64,000 nt of DNA from Escherichia phage 1-6bf: the sequence record OR983334.1. One strand, 5' to 3'. Shown in pieces: positions 3,940 to 64,000 of this stretch. The notes beneath the pieces were generated by a model, which did no database searches, was not told where the DNA came from, and saw nothing but the letters and a program-made list of their open reading frames with translations. Position 1 is the stretch's first letter. Each line of letters starts with the position of its first letter. The position numbers and the translations under genes are program-made.

Positions 3940-4327
3940 GAAGACTCGCTGTAGTGGAATGTGGACTGAAGCTCGTTACAACTCTTTCATCAAGTCAGGG
4001 ATTCGTTCTCTGACTAGAAAGTGGAAGCCCATGTTCGATGCACTAGCAGACGCCAAGACAGAGCAGAAGATTAATCCGAAGACAGGAAGACTGGCAATGC
4101 ACTTTAAATGTGCCATGTGTGGTTCTGACCACCCTGTAAAGGATATGGCTATTGACCACATAGAGCCTATAGTTCCCTTAGATCATGAAGCAACTTGGGA
4201 TGAAATCATCTCTCGTGCTCTGTGTGAGAAAGAAGGTTTTCAGGTTCTATGTAAAGACCCTTGTCATAAGATTAAAACAAAAGAAGAGAATGATGCAAGA
4301 AAACAATTCAAAAAAGGAAATGAGTGA
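3926..4327 (+). CDS. HNH endonuclease
   Basis: CAMCGS ... DHIEPI ... CKDPCHKIK zinc-binding HNH motif. Confidence 0.6.
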   Translation: MAKSEKTRCSGMWTEARYNSFIKSGIRSLTRKWKPMFDALADAKTEQKINPKTGRLAMHFKCAMCGSDHPVKDMAIDHIEPIVPLDHEATWDEIISRALCEKEGFQVLCKDPCHKIKTKEENDARKQFKKGNE

Positions 4328-44694: not shown

Positions 44695-44904
44695 ATGTTC
44701 TTTCGTAAGAAAAAGCCCGAAGATTCTGGATGTAAACACGAGTGGGTGATCACTGAGAACCTACATATCACCCACGCTAAAGACACTCCGGTCGAGAGAA
44801 AAGAATCTCGTGTATCTCGTATCTGTAAACACTGTTTGAAAATAGAACAGCATAAAGTTCCCGGTCATATTGGTCACGATGTAGCCATTCGTATCTTTAG
44901 TTAA
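44695..44904 (+). CDS. small His/Cys protein, paralog family 2 (member 3)
   Basis: CKHEW ... ICKHC, same spacing of H/C residues. Confidence 0.4.
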   Translation: MFFRKKKPEDSGCKHEWVITENLHITHAKDTPVERKESRVSRICKHCLKIEQHKVPGHIGHDVAIRIFS

Positions 44905-44927
44905 ACAAATCTAGCACCCTTAGCTCA

Positions 44928-45368
44928 ATGGAGGTGGTATTGAAAATAGAGTTGGAATACCCCTTCATCAATGACTGGAGGTTGGGGTATTTAAGGACAA
45001 GTAAGGATGGGAGGAGGCGTGTTGACCTATTCAATTCTAACACAGATAGGACTACGATCTCTTATGCAAGGTATTTAATGTCTTGCCATGTAGGGAGGTA
45101 TCTTACTGCGGAGGAAGAGGTAGATCATGTTGATCAAAATCCAACCAATGATGAGATATCTAACCTTCAGATTCTAAGCACAAATGATCACCTAAAGAAG
45201 ACCTTAGAGAACAGACCTAAGGGTGTGGTCATTACTTTGATTTGTAGTAATTGTGGCACATCTTTTGAGAGAAGGGGTAACAAGGTCCACAAAGAAAACC
45301 AAAACCATTTTTGTAGTAGGTCTTGCAACGGTAAGTATTACTGGAGCAAGGGTTTCAATAATAAATAA
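44928..45368 (+). CDS. HNH homing endonuclease
   Basis: SYARYLM ... HVGRYLTAEEEVDHVDQNPTNDEISNLQIL plus C-terminal zinc finger; abuts tRNA-like element. Confidence 0.7.
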   Translation: MEVVLKIELEYPFINDWRLGYLRTSKDGRRRVDLFNSNTDRTTISYARYLMSCHVGRYLTAEEEVDHVDQNPTNDEISNLQILSTNDHLKKTLENRPKGVVITLICSNCGTSFERRGNKVHKENQNHFCSRSCNGKYYWSKGFNNK

Positions 45369-45379
45369 GAGCTTCTAGC

Positions 45380-45458
45380 GAGGATGTATCTTCCCCGCCT
45401 TCTAAGCGGTCGTTAAAGAAGTAATTGGAGTATGCAGGTTCGAACCCTGTCATCCTCG
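45380..45458 (+). tRNA. tRNA-like element (possible tRNA-Arg UCU; cloverleaf not fully resolved by hand)
   Basis: perfect 7-bp acceptor stem (GAGGATG/CATCCTC), T-arm GCAGG-TTCGAAC-CCTGT, hairpin with loop CTTCTAA; D-arm non-canonical in my fold; no encoded CCA. Confidence 0.35.
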
Positions 45459-45481
45459 CTAGAGGCTCTTGGAGGTGTGTT

Positions 45482-45763
45482 ATGTCATGGGGTGGTGTAA
45501 TATCCTTAATCTGTATCTTCCTTGTCTGCATAGCCCTTACAGGCTGCGTACAGAGCCGTCCTGATGGATGGTGTGCAGTAGCAGTGGAAGGTGTTTGTGT
45601 TTCTCGCTGGCACAAAGGTGAGAAGGTTCCTTCTGGTGAAATTGATATGCGTTACAGTGGTATCTCATGCCTGAACGGTGCAGCAGTAGATGAGGAAACT
45701 AAAACCTTGTCAGATGCACAGTGGTGTGGTGGTTCTGTAACAACAACCGGTAAGGAGTGGTAA
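45482..45763 (+). CDS. lipoprotein (superinfection-exclusion candidate)
   Basis: GGAGG RBS; signal peptide MSWGGVISLICIFLVCIALTGC with lipobox LTGC; Cys-rich mature part. Confidence 0.55.
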   Translation: MSWGGVISLICIFLVCIALTGCVQSRPDGWCAVAVEGVCVSRWHKGEKVPSGEIDMRYSGISCLNGAAVDEETKTLSDAQWCGGSVTTTGKEW

Positions 45764-45764
45764 T

Positions 45765-46013
45765 ATGACAGCTCATTATTGGAATACAAAGAAGCTTCTT
45801 GAAGAGATGGCTGGAGGTAGTAGGGTACAGCTAATCTCCATGCTTCGAATGGATGCTCGCTCCTTACGCTTCCAAGTAAAGATTGGTAACTTCAGTGATG
45901 GCCTTTATTACACGCTGAAGGAAAGGATCAAGAAGACTCACTTCATCATGTACGGAATCAAACCGAGAACGTACGTTAACTACATGTATTGGAATACATG
46001 CTACGATAATTGA
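45765..46013 (+). CDS. hypothetical protein
   Basis: AAGGAG RBS. Confidence 0.5.
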   Translation: MTAHYWNTKKLLEEMAGGSRVQLISMLRMDARSLRFQVKIGNFSDGLYYTLKERIKKTHFIMYGIKPRTYVNYMYWNTCYDN

Positions 46014-46020
46014 GGTTATT

Positions 46021-46242
46021 ATGAAACTAGACTCTAAGCAGTCACTTAAAACCGCTGAACTGTCCACGCTGCCAAACGGAAGTATCTTTGGTCATGATAA
46101 ACACTTCTGGATTAAAACAGACATCATAGACGATGGGTATATTACCTGTGTCAACCTTTGGAATGGTTCAGTGGATGGTTATCGCCCTAGCGCAAAGGTA
46201 GTCCCTCAGCCCGATGCAAAGGCTATAGGTTTAGTTTACTAA
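46021..46242 (+). CDS. small early protein, paralog family 1 (member E)
   Basis: LPNGSIFGHDKHFWIKTD family pattern. Confidence 0.5.
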   Translation: MKLDSKQSLKTAELSTLPNGSIFGHDKHFWIKTDIIDDGYITCVNLWNGSVDGYRPSAKVVPQPDAKAIGLVY

Positions 46243-46251
46243 GGAGCCTGT

Positions 46252-46425
46252 ATGAGTTGTTTTGGTGGCGGTGAAGTAGATGACGATGATGACATGGAAT
46301 CAAACGGCACATGTCCTGATTGTGGGTGTGAGACATGGGATGGGGTTTCTGTCTACCCTGCCTGTAGTTATTCACCAGTAATTTGTAAAACATGCGGTGA
46401 TCAGCCGTGTGACCAGTCTTGCTAA
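46252..46425 (+). CDS. small Cys-rich protein
   Basis: 57 codons, AAGGAG RBS, 9 Cys (CPDCGC ... CKTCGDQPCDQSC). Confidence 0.4.
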   Translation: MSCFGGGEVDDDDDMESNGTCPDCGCETWDGVSVYPACSYSPVICKTCGDQPCDQSC

Positions 46426-47040
46426 GAGAATATTATGACTGAAGAATTTTTAAAGTGGTTTGGTGATACCTTCAAAGAGTATCTATTCTCTCCAGAAGAC
46501 TTTGAAGAACTGAAAACCTACACTTGGTTGGCTTGGAGAGATAGCCGACGAGAGATGAATAAGTAATATCGTGAAGGATTCTTACGAGAGTCCTTTGAGA
46601 TAGGACTTCAGATCTCCTATCAAACTAACATTCATGTAACTAGCCCATAAGGGCGTTACCCTTTAATAACCCAGCCCACTAAGGGGGCGGGAGTTTAGTG
46701 CTGGATTAGCATAACGCTTATTCCTACAAAGGCAACCGATTGTTAGATCTTACATGCAATACTAATTAATAGGATAAGGGAGGATTCGTCCCCTCCCCCT
46801 ATTTATAAATTATCAGGAGAGTACTCTAGCTGATTAGCTGTAGAAGGGAGGCCGATATCTACGGCGTGGCCCAGAGCTAGTGTACTCTCCTGATGAGGCA
46901 CCTCCTCATCGTGGTAAGCTGTGGAATAATCTTTACAGCAGTTACTTGAAGTAGCCTGTACGGCCCTCAGCAAAGAGTCCGGACGATATCTGAGTGACTT
47001 TAAAAACAGATGGAGCCAGGTGGAATCCCTGGCAATTAGT

Positions 47041-47186
47041 TACAGGTATAGCTTATGAGGCTCACTAATGCAGAGCCTACGGTAAAGCAGTCGCCCGTGG
47101 TCAAATGACCGTATGCCCATTGGATGCATTCCTTTGGTGATGGCTAGGGAGTCCGAGCGTAGGTTCGAATCCTACACCTGTAACCA
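47041..47186 (+). tRNA. tRNA-like element with encoded CCA (146 nt between acceptor halves; intron, long insert or tRNA-like RNA)
   Basis: T-arm GTAGG-TTCGAAT-CCTAC, acceptor 3' ACCTGTA + A + CCA; only perfect 5' partner TACAGGT lies at 47041. Confidence 0.35.
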
Positions 47187-47214
47187 AATCGAATAATATC
47201 TAATTGGAGGATGT

Positions 47215-47526
47215 ATGAAAGCACGAAGAACTATATGGACTCCGATGCAGATTGAAAATCTTCGGAGACTAATCAAAGAGTACTCGGTTAAAGAAGTTGC
47301 TCAGATTATGAATGTAACGGAGAATGCAGTTAATACAGCTTGCACTAAATTCGGAATATCAAGAGCTTCAATCCGAGTTAAATGGTCTGAAGAAGAAGAC
47401 CAGTTCCTTATCCGTAATGCTGGGTTCATGTCTATTCAGAGAATGGCTGACATGCTCGGTAGAAGCTATGCTGCTGTACAGAACAGGGCATGTATGCACC
47501 TTAATATTAGCCTCAAACTTAAATAG
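47215..47526 (+). CDS. tandem helix-turn-helix DNA-binding protein
   Basis: GGAGG RBS; two similar units (W.P..IENLRRLI ... SVKEVAQIM and W.EEEDQFLI ... SIQRMADML). Confidence 0.5.
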   Translation: MKARRTIWTPMQIENLRRLIKEYSVKEVAQIMNVTENAVNTACTKFGISRASIRVKWSEEEDQFLIRNAGFMSIQRMADMLGRSYAAVQNRACMHLNISLKLK

Positions 47527-63762: not shown

Positions 63763-63971
63763 TGAGACCGATCACCATGAGACAGTTTTGGTTAGCGAAG
63801 ATTAAGTGGGCATCAGGCGGGATGACTATGACTGCACTGCCCACCCGTCAACAAGCTCGAGAGTTTAAAAAGTCTATGTTCAATGTAGACTTAACTAAGA
63901 ATATTAGCATTCACAAGGCCAGAGAATATTCCTCTGGTCGTGTTTATATCAGCGGAAAGGTACATTACTAA
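63762..63971 (+). CDS. hypothetical protein
   Basis: 69-aa ORF with ATGA-type overlap. Confidence 0.4.
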   Translation: MRPITMRQFWLAKIKWASGGMTMTALPTRQQAREFKKSMFNVDLTKNISIHKAREYSSGRVYISGKVHY

Positions 63972-64000
63972 TGAAAAAGATGTGGGCTGTTCGTGTTGTT

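What the first reader, a model, noticed from the sequence alone, without database searches (positions are those of the whole stretch)
44928..47186. tRNA-like elements with non-canonical bodies next to an HNH homing endonuclease and a highly structured 450-bp non-coding stretch
At 45380-45458 there is a perfect 7-bp acceptor helix and a canonical T-arm (GCAGG-TTCGAAC-CCTGT), with an internal hairpin whose loop CTTCTAA would give anticodon UCU (Arg); I could not fold a normal D-arm by hand. At about 47111-47186 there is a perfect T-arm and acceptor 3' strand ending ACCTGTA-A-CCA, but the only perfect 5' partner (TACAGGT) is at 47041, implying a 146-nt molecule: an intron or insert-containing tRNA, a tRNA-like RNA, or a mis-folded ordinary tRNA. 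The 46600-47040 region is ORF-free and contains long inverted repeats (TCAGGAGAGTACTCTAG ... CTAGTGTACTCTCCTGA). An HNH homing endonuclease gene abuts the first element, a common arrangement where such enzymes target tRNA gene clusters.
Basis: partly seen in the sequence, partly recalled or inferred. Interest (0 to 1): 0.55.

Follow-up and report, generated by a model that had tools for sequence, protein, structure and literature searches.

The report
Rewired phage arginine tRNA beside HNH
A homing-endonuclease cassette has replaced this coliphage's ordinary arginine tRNA gene with a conserved, phage-wide tRNA-Arg whose D-arm is wired in a different order, a shape not described for tRNAs used in bacteria; a separate 146-nt tRNA-framed RNA lies 1.6 kb downstream.

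Summary
The window is a Kuravirus (phiEco32-like) coliphage. Relatives carry one canonical tRNA-Arg(UCU) here. In the window only its first 19 nt survive (44914-44932), followed by an HNH endonuclease gene and the odd element at 45380-45458.

That element is not a decayed tRNA. It belongs to a family found in more than 70 viral contigs and 258 phage isolates, including phi92, Felix O1 and rV5-like phages. Members have identical spacing. Acceptor, anticodon and T stems covary, as does a fourth helix that closes around the anticodon arm (19 of 21 pairs compensated; 0 of 500 shuffles as good). A D-loop-like UAAUUGGAGUAU follows that helix. Anticodons are UCU, once ACG, both arginine. The element sits in tRNA arrays that almost always lack a canonical tRNA-Arg(UCU). 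My best reading is a functional tRNA-Arg with a permuted core. Charging and decoding are untested.

The 146-nt element (47041-47186) is also real, with three compensatory pairs, and sits inside tRNA arrays of Klebsiella N4-like phages. By architecture it resembles T4 RNA C, whose function is unknown.

The 450-bp stretch is a mosaic: a terminator-like hairpin, an RNA hairpin and a conserved leader.

The parts
44914..44932 (+). 19-nt 5' remnant (acceptor 5' strand, D-stem 5' strand, D-loop start) of the resident canonical tRNA-Arg(UCU) gene. It is a dead fragment.
   Evidence: Identical to nt 1-19 of the intact tRNA-Arg(TCT) at the same locus in phage EK5 (L001 1515-1590). No matching 3' half (T-loop plus AGGGTGC) exists anywhere in the window. 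The same remnant precedes the HNH gene in Bas91.
44928..45368 (+). Free-standing HNH (HNH_3-type) endonuclease gene. The real start may be the TTG at 44941, behind the GGAGG supplied by the tRNA remnant.
   Evidence: Pfam HNH_3 24.7 bits, cut-off 24.8. 88% nucleotide identity to the annotated HNH endonuclease of Bas93, and 78% over the 5' 300 nt to the 'homing endonuclease' of Bas91. Absent from most close relatives at the same site.
45366..45379 (+). 5' strand of a 14-bp leader/trailer helix that continues the acceptor stem. It starts at the HNH stop codon.
   Evidence: Pairs with 45458-45471. The precursor 45360-45478 folds at -47.6 kcal/mol, z = -4.9. Equivalent 12-15-bp helices with unrelated sequences occur in the other family members that lack an encoded CCA.
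45380..45458 (+). Non-canonical tRNA-Arg(UCU). Layout: acceptor 45380-86 / 45451-57; UAU 45387-89; helix H2 45390-93 / 45418-21; anticodon stem 45394-98 / 45406-10; loop CUUCUAA 45399-405 (anticodon 45401-03); bulge CGUUAAA 45411-17; D-loop-like connector UAAUUGGAGUAU 45422-33; T arm 45434-50; discriminator G 45458.
   Evidence: Rfam tRNA 29.7 bits. Family covariance model R1 gives 98.6 bits, against <=35 bits for canonical tRNAs. Covariation on 57 distinct sequences: 94.6% of cells paired, 19 of 21 pairs with double changes, 0 of 500 shuffles as good.
45458..45471 (+). 3' strand of the leader/trailer helix (GCTAGAGGCTCTTG). No CCA is encoded. It ends next to the GGAGG Shine-Dalgarno sequence of the downstream lipoprotein-like ORF.
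46778..46806 (+). Terminator-like GC-rich hairpin plus a U-rich tail. It ends the conserved part of the intergenic region (46567-46805).
   Evidence: Terminator scan. The block 46567-46805 is 98-99% identical in EK5, Bas93 and Bas94, which lack everything from 46806 to about 47195. The hairpin is also conserved in the N4-like phage UE-S5b.
46812..46894 (+). Candidate RNase III or processing site (inferred).
   Evidence: Inverted repeat I1. Present without the downstream modules in many Kuraviruses and in Gamaleyaviruses. Substitutions in HC-25922, XT32 and UE-S5b keep pairing through G.U pairs on the + strand only. There is also one double change and one paired deletion (read from the alignment).
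46976..47038 (+). 63-nt leader block containing the hairpin GCCAGG..CCTGGC. It immediately precedes the 146-nt element.
   Evidence: 97% identical to the sequence that precedes other tRNA-like genes in the N4-like phages UE-S5b (L006 1842-1904) and KP8 (L007 1957-2017).
47041..47186 (+). 146-nt tRNA-framed RNA: a 7-bp acceptor stem (TACAGGT/ACCTGTA), about five internal hairpins, a canonical T arm, discriminator A and an encoded CCA.
   Evidence: Six variants at 93-100% identity show three compensatory pairs (acceptor; hairpin AGGCTC/GAGCCT; hairpin GGA/TCC). It lies between tRNA-Tyr and tRNA-Ser in the tRNA array of Klebsiella phage GADU21.

Best explanation
1. Cassette replacement. In this Kuravirus the resident canonical tRNA-Arg(UCU) gene was overwritten from its D-loop onward. 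The incoming mobile cassette consists of a free-standing HNH homing endonuclease gene plus its own replacement tRNA-Arg(UCU) gene. Relatives carry the same arrangement with a different, canonical replacement tRNA. I infer that the endonuclease cuts HNH-less tRNA-Arg alleles in co-infections, and that repair copies the cassette together with its linked, uncut tRNA allele.

2. The replacement tRNA. It is a member of a widespread, phage-specific class of arginine tRNA with a rewired core.
- Acceptor stem, T arm and anticodon arm are standard.
- The 3-4-bp D-stem-like helix closes around the anticodon arm instead of around a D-loop.
- The D-loop-like sequence (A-A-U-U-G-G-A) follows that helix, just before the T arm.
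- This is a non-circular permutation of the tRNA body that could still build an L-shape.
- I infer that host RNase III, RNase P, 3' exonucleases and the CCA-adding enzyme cut it out of the early transcript through its 21-bp acceptor-plus-leader/trailer helix. I also infer that ArgRS charges it and that it reads the AGA/AGG codons the phage over-uses.

3. The 146-nt element. This is a separate, horizontally mobile payload RNA held in a tRNA frame (acceptor stem, T arm, CCA). The frame would give it tRNA-type processing and stability, as in T4 RNA C. What the payload does is unknown.

Shown: the anatomy, conservation, covariation, genomic context and replacement history.
Inferred: processing, aminoacylation, decoding, homing activity and the 3D fold.
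For: Replacement history:
- EK5 has an intact tRNA-Arg(TCT) exactly where the window keeps only nt 1-19.
- Bas91, YF01 and O18-011 have remnant + HNH + a different canonical tRNA-Arg(TCT).
- Bas93 has remnant + HNH + the odd tRNA. Bas94 and HC-25922 have the odd tRNA alone.
- Most relatives lack the cassette.
- Kuravirus-like phages normally carry a single tRNA-Arg(TCT), and AGA is 20% of their Arg codons against 3.6% in E. coli (PMC9965538). In the window AGA is 19.6% and AGG 7.3%.

Family:
- 57 distinct 82-nt sequences have identical spacing.
- 94.6% of cells are paired, 19 of 21 pairs show double changes, and 0 of 500 shuffles match. Slid controls pair at 33-46%.
- H2 pairs 12-41 and 13-40 are never broken, with 4 and 3 pair types.
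- The covariance model gives 81-104 bits for family members and <=35 bits for canonical tRNAs.
- The connector keeps GGAGUA even when the search did not specify it.
- It matches the D-loops of canonical tRNA-Arg(UCU): AAUGGACA in EK5, AAUGGAUA in T4, AGUUGGAUA in L051.

Arginine function:
- Every member found with the anticodon left free has UCU.
- A short-bulge subtype has UCU or ACG, the latter also Arg.
- The element lies in tRNA arrays of up to 24 genes. A true canonical Arg(tct) is co-present in only 2 of 72 loci.
- Felix O1 carries the element between two HNH genes. Its genome paper noted the unexpected absence of a tRNA for over-used AGA (PMC3185647).
- It occurs in only 5 contigs, all from MAGs, across 185,579 species genomes, but in 258 phage isolates.

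Processing helix: the no-CCA members have 12-15-bp leader/trailer helices of unrelated sequence.

Element 2.

T4 parallel: segB, then tRNA-Arg, then rnaD, then rnaC. The roles of RNA C and RNA D are unknown (PMC3014915, PMC9697503).
Against: - There is no expression, processing, charging or decoding data of any kind.
- The window copy lacks an encoded CCA. Its discriminator is paired in the precursor, which is unfavourable for RNase P until the helix is cut.
- Its first anticodon-stem pair is a C.U mismatch.
- Single-sequence MFE folding does not reproduce H2 for the window copy. It pairs the anticodon loop with GAAG instead.
- Part of the apparent invariance (bulge CRTTAA and connector) was imposed by the search patterns. 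This was only partly relieved and 100/101.
- HNH_3 is 0.1 bit below Pfam's cut-off, and no cleavage site is known.
- The 3D equivalence of the permuted core is argued from tRNA geometry, not modelled.
- Two loci (L030, L051) carry both the canonical and the rewired tRNA-Arg(UCU), so the two are not strictly exclusive.
- Evidence for element 2 rests on six sequences that are 96% identical.
Confidence: 0.62

Rival explanations
1. Element 1 is a conserved tRNA mimic that is not used in translation. It could be a decoy or sponge for a host tRNA-targeting defence nuclease, for ArgRS, or for a tRNA-modifying enzyme. It could also be a processing or stability signal embedded in the early transcript.
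For: The core is non-canonical, and ARAGORN and most annotation pipelines miss it. The window subtype has no CCA and a long closed helix. Phage tRNAs are known to counter anticodon nucleases (PMC10264068, PMC11464382, PMC11555353). Two loci keep a canonical Arg(tct) as well.
Against: The anticodon loop is exactly that of genuine tRNA-Arg(UCU): C32, U33, UCU, A37. A second arginine anticodon (ACG) occurs on the same scaffold. The element replaces, rather than accompanies, canonical tRNA-Arg(UCU) in 70 of 72 loci and in Kuraviruses that otherwise always keep that gene (PMC9965538). Most members encode N73-CCA. A decoy and a decoder are not mutually exclusive.
Confidence: 0.22
2. Element 1 is a degenerate pseudogene, a tRNA fragment scrambled by the HNH insertion, and the extended inverted repeat is a DNA-level feature such as an endonuclease site or the ends of a mobile element.
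For: It sits next to a mobile endonuclease and a real tRNA fragment. It only just reaches the Rfam threshold. Its flanks form an inverted repeat.
Against: The same 82-nt architecture recurs in hundreds of unrelated phages without HNH neighbours. Compensatory changes occur in all four helices. The leader/trailer helices tolerate G.U pairs and share no sequence. The window copy scores as a typical family member at 98.6 bits. Bas94 has the element without any HNH gene.
Confidence: 0.03
3. Element 2 (47041-47186) is an ordinary tRNA interrupted by an intron or insert, or a small or permuted tmRNA-like molecule.
For: At relaxed thresholds ARAGORN calls it tRNA-Arg(cct) with a 62-nt intron, or a permuted tmRNA. 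The homologous non-coding region of the N4-like phages UE-S5b and KP8 does contain a tmRNA-like tag frame, ANDDVVLMAA**.
Against: There are no calls at default thresholds and no Rfam intron, tmRNA or tRNA hit at E<=10. No D arm or anticodon arm can be assembled. The compensatory change supports the hairpin AGGCTC/GAGCCT, which conflicts with a D stem. There is no G3.U70 pair. The only frame ends in ..PVVK rather than a hydrophobic ..AA tag. The UE-S5b tag segment is not homologous to any part of the window.
Confidence: 0.08
4. The HNH gene lies inside a self-splicing group I intron, so the 5' remnant and a downstream exon are joined into a normal tRNA-Arg.
For: Phage HNH and GIY-YIG genes often ride in group I introns, and the insertion point is inside a tRNA gene.
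Against: There is no group I intron match at E<=10. No 3' exon able to pair with GCACCCT exists anywhere in the window. The downstream tRNA has its own complete, different acceptor stem.
Confidence: 0.02

Closest known systems
Canonical phage and bacterial tRNA-Arg(UCU): the Kuravirus EK5 tRNA-Arg and T4 tRNA-Arg
   Same: 7-bp acceptor stem. 5-bp T stem with a UUCGAAY loop. 5-bp anticodon stem with loop CUUCUAA. A G/A discriminator. An AAU(U)GGA D-loop-type motif. The same genomic slot in Kuraviruses and in phage tRNA arrays.
   Different: There is no D hairpin. The D-stem-like helix encloses the anticodon arm, a 3-7-nt bulge follows the anticodon stem, and the D-loop-like motif is moved to the variable-loop position. 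tRNA finders mostly miss it.
D-armless mitochondrial tRNAs, for example metazoan mt-tRNA-Ser(AGY) and Ascaris mt-tRNA-Ser(UCU) (PMC7609411)
   Same: Both lack a D hairpin. Both have a short connector between the acceptor and anticodon arms. Both read AGR-type codons.
   Different: The phage RNA keeps a full canonical T arm, a D-stem-like helix stacked on the anticodon stem, and a GG-containing D-loop-like strand. It is 79 nt, not shortened. It would have to work with unmodified bacterial EF-Tu and ribosomes. [quoted passage not shown]
Permuted RNAs: circularly permuted tRNA genes of Cyanidioschyzon, permuted tmRNA genes, and non-circular permutations in ribozymes (PMC10085705)
   Same: Conserved structural blocks appear in a different 5'-to-3' order.
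   Different: Permuted tRNA genes are processed back into a canonical tRNA. Here the 5' and 3' ends are normal and the internal order differs, which is a non-circular permutation. I found no report of that for tRNA in the searched literature.
T4 tRNA region: segB homing endonuclease, tRNA-Arg, RNA D (species 2) and RNA C (species 1)
   Same: A free-standing homing endonuclease sits next to a tRNA-Arg gene and small stable RNAs. RNA C, like the 146-nt element, has a T arm and a 7-position acceptor-like closing stem around a body of about 100 nt. SegB drives preferred inheritance of the tRNA region (cited in PMC3014915).
   Different: SegB is GIY-YIG, not HNH. It lies between intact tRNA genes rather than in a truncated one. 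The 146-nt element shares only the 11-nt T-loop motif with rnaC. No RNA D homologue is present in the window.
Engineered 'tRNA scaffold' RNAs and the tRNA-like domain of tmRNA
   Same: A foreign RNA body is held between an acceptor stem and a T arm ending in CCA, so that tRNA-processing enzymes mature and stabilise it.
   Different: This is a natural element of unknown payload function. It has no alanine identity pair (G3.U70) and no tag reading frame.

Membership tests
tRNA (Rfam RF00005; canonical elongator tRNA) | 7-bp acceptor stem closed by the 5' and 3' ends, plus a discriminator base | tested here: met
   45380-86 pairs with 45451-57. Across 57 sequences 99% of cells are paired and all 7 pairs show compensatory changes.
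tRNA (Rfam RF00005; canonical elongator tRNA) | T arm: 5-bp stem and 7-nt loop U-U-C-R-A-N-Y, abutting the acceptor 3' strand | tested here: met
   GCAGG-TTCGAAC-CCTGT at 45434-50. 99.3% of cells are paired and 4 of 5 pairs are compensated.
tRNA (Rfam RF00005; canonical elongator tRNA) | Anticodon arm: 5-bp stem and 7-nt loop with U33 and a purine at 37 | tested here: met
   Loop CUUCUAA. Family stem is 94.7% paired with 5 of 5 pairs compensated. In the window copy the first pair is C.U.
tRNA (Rfam RF00005; canonical elongator tRNA) | D arm: helix 10-13/22-25 closing a D-loop, located between the acceptor stem and the anticodon arm | tested here: not met
   Only UAU plus a 4-nt strand lies between the acceptor and anticodon stems. 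That strand pairs with nt 39-42, after the anticodon arm. An alternative small hairpin (38-41/46-49) is not conserved.
tRNA (Rfam RF00005; canonical elongator tRNA) | Detected by standard tools above threshold | tested here: inconclusive
   Rfam gives 29.7 bits against 29. ARAGORN finds nothing. GenBank records say 'none', 'tRNA-OTHER', 'tRNA-Undet' or mislabel it.
tRNA (Rfam RF00005; canonical elongator tRNA) | 3' CCA end, encoded or added | tested here: inconclusive
   The window copy has G-CTA and a paired trailer. 41 of the 57 aligned family sequences encode CCA after the discriminator. Post-transcriptional addition cannot be tested here.
tRNA (Rfam RF00005; canonical elongator tRNA) | Aminoacylation and use on the ribosome | not testable with these tools
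   Indirect only: replacement of canonical tRNA-Arg(UCU) in arrays and high AGA use (PMC9965538; PMC3185647).
Arginine identity for E. coli ArgRS (established determinants C35, U/G36, A20, A/G73; from my own knowledge) | C35 and U36 or G36 in the anticodon | tested here: met
   UCU in every standard member. ACG in L076 2689-2766.
Arginine identity for E. coli ArgRS (established determinants C35, U/G36, A20, A/G73; from my own knowledge) | A20 in the D-loop, and a purine discriminator | tested here: inconclusive
   The discriminator is G or A in 55 of 57 aligned sequences. An invariant A follows the GG of the relocated D-loop-like strand (G48 G49 A50), also in scans that did not specify it. Whether it occupies the A20 position in 3D is unknown.
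Free-standing HNH homing endonuclease | HNH catalytic motif | tested here: inconclusive
   HNH_3 scores 24.7 bits against a cut-off of 24.8, E = 1.8e-5. HNH genes next to the same tRNA type in L034 and L052 score 42-45 bits.
Free-standing HNH homing endonuclease | Presence/absence polymorphism at one site among close relatives, with a disrupted or altered target allele linked to the gene | tested here: met
   an intact tRNA without HNH (EK5), against a 19- or 27-nt remnant + HNH + a replacement tRNA (window, Bas93, Bas91, YF01).
Free-standing HNH homing endonuclease | Site-specific cleavage of the HEG-less allele and gene conversion | not testable with these tools
T4 RNA C (species 1)-type stable RNA | Encoded in or next to a phage tRNA cluster, with tRNA-like termini (closing stem plus T arm) | tested here: met
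   Between tRNA-Tyr and tRNA-Ser in GADU21. The frame was confirmed by my own scan. T4 rnaC has the T arm CCGGG-TTCGAAT-CCCGG.
T4 RNA C (species 1)-type stable RNA | Sequence homology to T4 rnaC | tested here: not met
   Only an 11-nt T-loop match. The resemblance is architectural only.
tmRNA (one-piece or permuted) | G3.U70 alanine identity, a tag reading frame ending in hydrophobic ..AA, and detection by ARAGORN or Rfam | tested here: not met
   The pair at positions 3-70 is C-G. There is no such frame. There are no hits at default thresholds. A relaxed ARAGORN call is not credible.
Group I intron in a tRNA gene | Intron core detectable, and both exons present | tested here: not met
   No Rfam hit at E<=10. 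No 3' exon in the window.

The most novel reading that the evidence does not exclude
The rewired RNA is a working elongator tRNA-Arg. On this reading it is a natural, non-circularly permuted tRNA that E. coli ArgRS, EF-Tu and the ribosome accept although it has no D hairpin. It would be maintained in hundreds of virulent phages, including Felix O1, phi92, rV5-like, Kuravirus and jumbo phages. Its altered core or gene sequence may escape something that recognises ordinary tRNA-Arg, such as host tRNA-targeting nucleases or tRNA-gene-specific homing endonucleases. It would be the first non-cloverleaf tRNA shown to function in bacterial translation and the first non-circular permutation of a tRNA.
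Probability: 0.5. Interest if true: 0.9.

Novelty: new variant of a known kind. Interest (0 to 1): 0.8.

Why it matters
- tRNA shape is among the most conserved in biology. Outside mitochondria, non-cloverleaf decoders are essentially unknown, and a 2024 paper states that all known bacterial tRNAs are canonical (PMC11551756).
- A conserved, covarying, arginine-specific tRNA with a re-ordered core would change that picture. It is present in classic phages and invisible to standard annotation.
- It would explain 'missing' tRNA-Arg(AGA) genes, which the Felix O1 genome paper noted explicitly (PMC3185647).
- It gives tRNA biologists a natural test of which connectivities ArgRS, EF-Tu, RNase P and the ribosome tolerate.
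- It gives phage biologists a candidate for evasion of tRNA-directed immunity or of homing endonucleases.
- It shows that tRNA annotation of phage genomes is systematically incomplete.
- The locus records serial endonuclease-driven replacement of a tRNA gene.
- The 146-nt element extends the 50-year-old puzzle of T4 RNA C to other phage families.

Tried and rejected
- ARAGORN at default settings found no tRNA or tmRNA in the window. At relaxed settings it produced contradictory calls for the 146-nt element: an intron-containing tRNA-Arg(cct), or a permuted tmRNA with an implausible tag. I judged these meaningless.
- Rfam at E<=10 over 44800-47300 gave only the marginal tRNA hit and two chance sRNA matches. 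There was no group I intron, tmRNA, RNase P or YrlA.
- Single-sequence MFE folds did not recover helix H2 for the window copy and gave different cores for different members, so I relied on covariation.
- An alternative small hairpin after the anticodon arm (CCGA/UUGG in phi92) was rejected because it is not conserved.
- One collection scan used a wrong spacing (9 N instead of 8). All 105 hits lacked any tRNA frame. This wasted a scan but serves as a negative control for chance matches.
- A sigma-70 scan gave no convincing promoter for either RNA in the window. The phi92 copy has a perfect TTGACA-17-TATAGT, read directly.
- Sequence homology of the 146-nt element to T4 rnaC or rnaD and to the 115-nt element of Bas91: none.
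- A scan for more relatives of the 146-nt element found only one viral contig, so its structure remains weakly supported.
- The closest isolate, 1-6af, is not colinear with or identical to the window outside the region studied. The statement that the phage has no other tRNA therefore holds for the 64-kb window and for 1-6af's unmatched 12 kb, not strictly for the unseen part of this genome.
- Literature searches for a D-armless or permuted phage tRNA found nothing. The library lacks most subscription journals.

Full report
**What the window is.** The region matches Kuravirus (phiEco32-like) coliphages. Escherichia phage 1-6af is 99.9% identical over 44900-47250. Most other relatives align only from about 45471 onward and in pieces. 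The + strand carries a run of small early-type ORFs.

**Checking the observation.**
- ARAGORN finds no tRNA or tmRNA in the 64-kb window.
- Rfam's only hit above gathering score is tRNA at 45380-45458: 29.7 bits against 29, aligned with the D-arm deleted and a 20-nt insertion before the T arm.
- A relaxed Rfam search of 44800-47300 adds nothing credible. There is no group I intron, tmRNA, RNase P or Y-RNA-like match.
- My own scan of both strands for a 5-bp T stem, a UUCRANY loop, a 7-nt acceptor strand and a perfectly complementary 5' strand 40-260 nt upstream finds exactly two elements: 45380-45458 and 47041-47186.
- The inverted repeat is at 46812-46831 / 46875-46894.

**The HNH gene sits in the wreck of the phage's normal tRNA-Arg gene.**
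- Phage EK5 has an intact, canonical tRNA-Arg(TCT), GCACCCTTAGCTCAATGGACAGAGC..., immediately after the ORF that ends at window 44904.
- The window keeps only the first 19 nt (44914-44932). The sequence then diverges into the HNH ORF, whose Shine-Dalgarno sequence and possible ATG are supplied by the remnant's AATGGAGG.
- Homology with EK5 resumes at the GGAGGT in front of the next ORF, near 45472.
- No sequence that could serve as the remnant's 3' half exists in the window.
- Kuravirus-like phages are reported to carry a single tRNA-Arg(TCT). AGA is about 20% of their Arg codons, against 3.6% in E. coli (PMC9965538). In the window's 34 long ORFs AGA is 19.6% and AGG 7.3%.

**The same site has been overwritten repeatedly.**
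- Bas91, YF01 and O18-011 have a 19- or 27-nt remnant, a related HNH gene (78% nucleotide identity over the 5' 300 nt), and a different but canonical tRNA-Arg(TCT) overlapping the HNH stop. A 115-nt tRNA-like RNA follows in Bas91 and YF01.
- Bas93 has remnant + HNH + the odd tRNA, as in the window.
- Bas94 has the odd tRNA alone.
- HC-25922 has the odd tRNA followed by the 3' stump of the Bas91-type tRNA.

Every variant retains exactly one complete UCU-anticodon tRNA-type gene. The HNH ORF scores 24.7 bits on Pfam HNH_3, cut-off 24.8. The pattern is presence/absence at one site, a truncated target, and a linked alternative allele. That is the pattern of a free-standing homing endonuclease. T4 offers a documented parallel: segB lies next to tRNA-Arg, followed by RNA D and RNA C (PMC3014915). 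Cleavage and homing themselves are inferred.

**Element 1 belongs to a large family.**
- The core GTAATTGGAGTATGCAGGTTC occurs in 19 viral contigs.
- A degenerate pattern finds 60 viral contigs, 8 kb to 499 kb long, but only 5 contigs in 185,579 species genomes, all of them MAGs.
- BLAST with the phi92 copy finds 258 isolate records: phi92-like, Felix O1-like, rV5-like, 121Q-like jumbo, Klebsiella, Serratia and Streptomyces phages. Most are unannotated there or labelled 'tRNA-OTHER'.
- The 57 distinct sequences are all 82 nt with identical spacing.

**Structure of element 1.** I tested the following layout: acceptor 1-7/72-78; U8 A9 U10; helix H2 11-14/39-42; anticodon stem 15-19/27-31; 7-nt loop; 7-nt bulge C-R-U-U-A-A-N; 12-nt connector U-A-A-Y-U-G-G-A-G-U-A-U; T arm 55-71.
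- 94.6% of cells are paired.
- 19 of 21 pairs have changes on both sides.
- The covariation score is 0.77 against 0.19 in shuffles, with 0 of 500 shuffles as good.
- Slid controls pair at 33-46%.
- H2 pairs 12-41 (UA, AU, GC, CG) and 13-40 (CG, GC, UA) are never broken.
- A covariance model built from this alignment scores family members at 81-104 bits (window copy 98.6) and canonical tRNAs at <=35 bits.

Caveat: the bulge and connector were partly fixed by the search patterns. A scan that left the connector free still returned UAA[U/C/G][U/C/-]GGAGUAU and UAGACGGAGUAG. A scan that left the bulge and anticodon free returned CGUCAAC and CAUCAAC bulges. A mis-spaced pattern of equal information content returned 105 hits, none with a tRNA frame.

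**How I read the structure.** The RNA is not simply D-armless.
- H2 stacks directly on the anticodon stem, because nt 14 and 15 are contiguous. It therefore occupies the place of the D stem.
- The strand that follows H2, A44 A45 U46 U47 G48 G49 A50, matches the D-loops of canonical tRNA-Arg(UCU): AAUGGACA in EK5, AAUGGAUA in T4, AGUUGGAUA in L051.
- U8 and A9 are invariant.
- The blocks of a normal tRNA core therefore seem to be present but in a different order. The canonical order is D5' - D-loop - D3' - anticodon arm. Here it is D5' - anticodon arm - bulge - D3' - D-loop-like strand.
- From known tRNA geometry (my own knowledge), nucleotide 21 lies near 48/49 and nucleotides 44/45 lie near 10. 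The new connections are therefore short, and an L-shape is plausible.

This is inference. No 3D modelling was possible. A 2023 paper reports that non-circular permutations were unknown in natural RNAs before its ribozyme examples (PMC10085705).

**Why I think it is a working tRNA-Arg.**
1. The anticodon loop is that of genuine tRNA-Arg(UCU). UCU is invariant although the stem beneath it varies freely.
2. A short-bulge subtype carries UCU (L077, L308) or ACG (L076), the latter also arginine and sharing C35.
3. The element normally lies inside tRNA arrays of up to 24 genes. A true canonical Arg(tct) accompanies it in only 2 of 72 loci. Two further ARAGORN 'Arg(tct)' calls are the element itself, mis-framed.
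4. In Kuraviruses it occupies the slot of the otherwise universal tRNA-Arg(TCT).
5. Felix O1 carries it (97.1 bits) between two HNH genes. The Felix O1 genome paper remarked that a tRNA for the over-used AGA codon would have been expected but was not found (PMC3185647).
6. 41 of the 57 aligned sequences encode CCA after the discriminator, which is G or A in 55 of them.

None of this shows charging or decoding. A decoy role remains possible and is not exclusive.

**The window's subtype.**
- About ten members, including the window copy, lack CCA. In these the acceptor stem continues into a 12-15-bp leader/trailer helix.
- The sequence of that helix differs completely between phages and tolerates G.U pairs.
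- In the window it is 45366-79 / 45458-71. It begins at the HNH stop codon and ends next to the Shine-Dalgarno sequence of the next ORF. The precursor folds at -47.6 kcal/mol, z = -4.9.
- These members are often next to nuclease genes: HNH_3 genes in the window, L034 and L052, and a shared 264-272-aa ORF in L016 and L056.
- I infer that the 21-bp continuous helix is an RNase III-type excision signal for a tRNA embedded in an mRNA. RNase P, exonucleases and CCA addition would follow, as is known for T4 tRNAs that lack an encoded CCA (my own knowledge).

**Element 2.**
- The 146-nt RNA has five further relatives at 93-97% identity (12 phage records, plus one IMG/VR contig found). They are in Kuraviruses and, notably, in the N4-like Klebsiella phages GADU21 and HS106.
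- In GADU21 it fills the gap between tRNA-Tyr and tRNA-Ser in a tRNA array.
- The few substitutions include three compensatory pairs, one each in the acceptor stem and two internal hairpins.
- The consensus fold is an acceptor stem closing a multiloop of about five hairpins plus the T arm.
- It has no anticodon arm, D arm or G3.U70 pair, no tmRNA-like tag, and no similarity to T4 rnaC beyond the T-loop.
- The nearest analogue is architectural. T4 RNA C is a 139-nt stable RNA with a T arm and closing stem, encoded beside tRNA-Arg, whose function is still unknown (PMC3014915; PMC9697503).
- The tRNA frame most likely provides processing and stability. The payload function is unknown.

**The '450-bp structured stretch' is a mosaic.**
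- 46567-46805 is shared at 98-99% identity with EK5, Bas93 and Bas94. It ends in a terminator-like hairpin at 46778-46806.
- Those phages lack 46806 to about 47195.
- The 83-nt hairpin (46812-46894) occurs on its own in many Kuraviruses and in N4-like Gamaleyaviruses. Its substitutions preserve pairing through G.U pairs on the + strand only, so it acts as RNA.
- 46976-47038 is 97% identical to the leader that precedes other tRNA-like genes in the N4-like phages UE-S5b and KP8.
- ShigP1-type phages have the hairpin joined almost directly to the 146-nt element.

These modules therefore move independently between unrelated phage families.

**Verdict.** The finding is real and more interesting than proposed. 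The known parts are a free-standing HNH endonuclease in a tRNA locus and a T4-RNA-C-like stable RNA. The new part is the rewired tRNA-Arg. It is strongly supported as a conserved structured RNA of tRNA type (about 0.95 in my judgement). It is moderately supported as a functional arginine decoder (about 0.6-0.65) and as a permuted L-shaped core (about 0.6). I found no description of it in the searchable literature, which does not cover most subscription journals.

Noticed in passing
L006 (Escherichia phage UE-S5b) about 1636-1671, and L007 (Klebsiella phage KP8), same block: The roughly 1.7-kb non-coding region of these N4-like phages contains a tmRNA-like tag frame, GCAAACGATGATGTTGTTCTGATGGCAGCCTAATAA = ANDDVVLMAA**. 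For comparison, the E. coli tag is ANDENYALAA (from my own knowledge). Its start is homologous to window 46564-46605, and it shares the hairpin and leader modules. Rfam tmRNA_permuted scores 32.7 bits, below the gathering score of 47. ARAGORN calls a permuted tmRNA only at relaxed thresholds. The tag segment has no homologue in the window.
   Followed up: partly
L009 (Bas91) 1734-1849; L010 (YF01) about 1712-1828; L035 (HC-25922) about 1633-1749: A tRNA-framed RNA of about 115 nt lies downstream of the cassette's tRNA-Arg. Its ends are GGGCUA.../...UAGUCC-A-CCA, giving a G3.U70 pair plus A73. That is the alanine (tmRNA-like) acceptor identity, but there is no tag frame.
   Followed up: partly
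L033 (Escherichia phage A73, rV5-like) about 1690-1790: A clear homologue of T4 RNA D (species 2), sharing TAAGTCGTCGGACTGATG and CACAGCAGAAACGGCGCACC, lies two genes downstream of the rewired tRNA-Arg. T4's small stable RNAs therefore have relatives outside the T4 group. None is present in the window.
   Followed up: partly
L076 2689-2766; L077 2103-2182; L308 1765-1842: A second subtype of the rewired scaffold has a 2-3-nt bulge and a 13-14-nt connector (UAAUUGGAAUGAU or UAAUUGGAGUCAAU). L076 carries anticodon ACG, and the same contig also has the UCU form at 4029-4110.
   Followed up: partly
L077 1458-1532: One copy of the rewired tRNA is broken inside the T arm (GGGAG-TGTGATTGACAT...). It could be an insertion or a decayed duplicate. 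An intact variant lies 600 nt downstream.
   Followed up: no
L039 2847-3857, next to the rewired tRNA at 2635-2716: The adjacent 336-aa ORF matches Pfam DUF2828 (100.7 bits) and has a vWA-like DVSGSMG motif. From my own knowledge it resembles Ro60/TROVE-type proteins, whose partner Y RNAs contain tRNA-like modules. This tRNA copy has a 14-bp leader/trailer helix.
   Followed up: partly
L016 3791-4585 and L056 7664-8482 (minus strand): Homologous 264-272-aa ORFs sharing the motif ..NYFPDFYLP..LDPKN.., with no Pfam match, abut two other no-CCA, extended-helix copies of the rewired tRNA. They may be an unrecognised endonuclease family associated with this tRNA gene.
   Followed up: partly
L003 (phi92) about 2461-2498: The phi92 copy has its own perfect sigma-70 promoter, TTGACA-17 nt-TATAGT, ending about 10 nt before the mature 5' end. 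The next tRNA has another. These copies are therefore independent transcription units (read).
   Followed up: no
window 46600-46625 and L006 about 1320-1345: The hairpin ATAGGA-CTTCAGATC-TCCTAT is conserved between the Kuravirus and the N4-like phage UE-S5b. It has two compensatory stem changes (ATAAGG/CCTTAT) and an invariant 9-nt loop. Its function is unknown.
   Followed up: no
window 47215-47526: The gene just downstream of the 146-nt RNA encodes a 103-aa protein with a sigma-70 region-4-like helix-turn-helix (Pfam Sigma70_r4_2, 31.8 bits). Relatives annotate it as a 'D5-like transcriptional regulator'. In phages without the inserted modules it has its own promoter-like TTGAAT-17-TTATAT (read). 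In the window that sequence is replaced by the RNA modules.
   Followed up: no
window 63777-64000 against OR983333 (1-6af): Outside the studied region the window is only 94% identical to 1-6af and is not colinear with it at the predicted position. The source genome is therefore a mosaic relative, not 1-6af itself.
   Followed up: no
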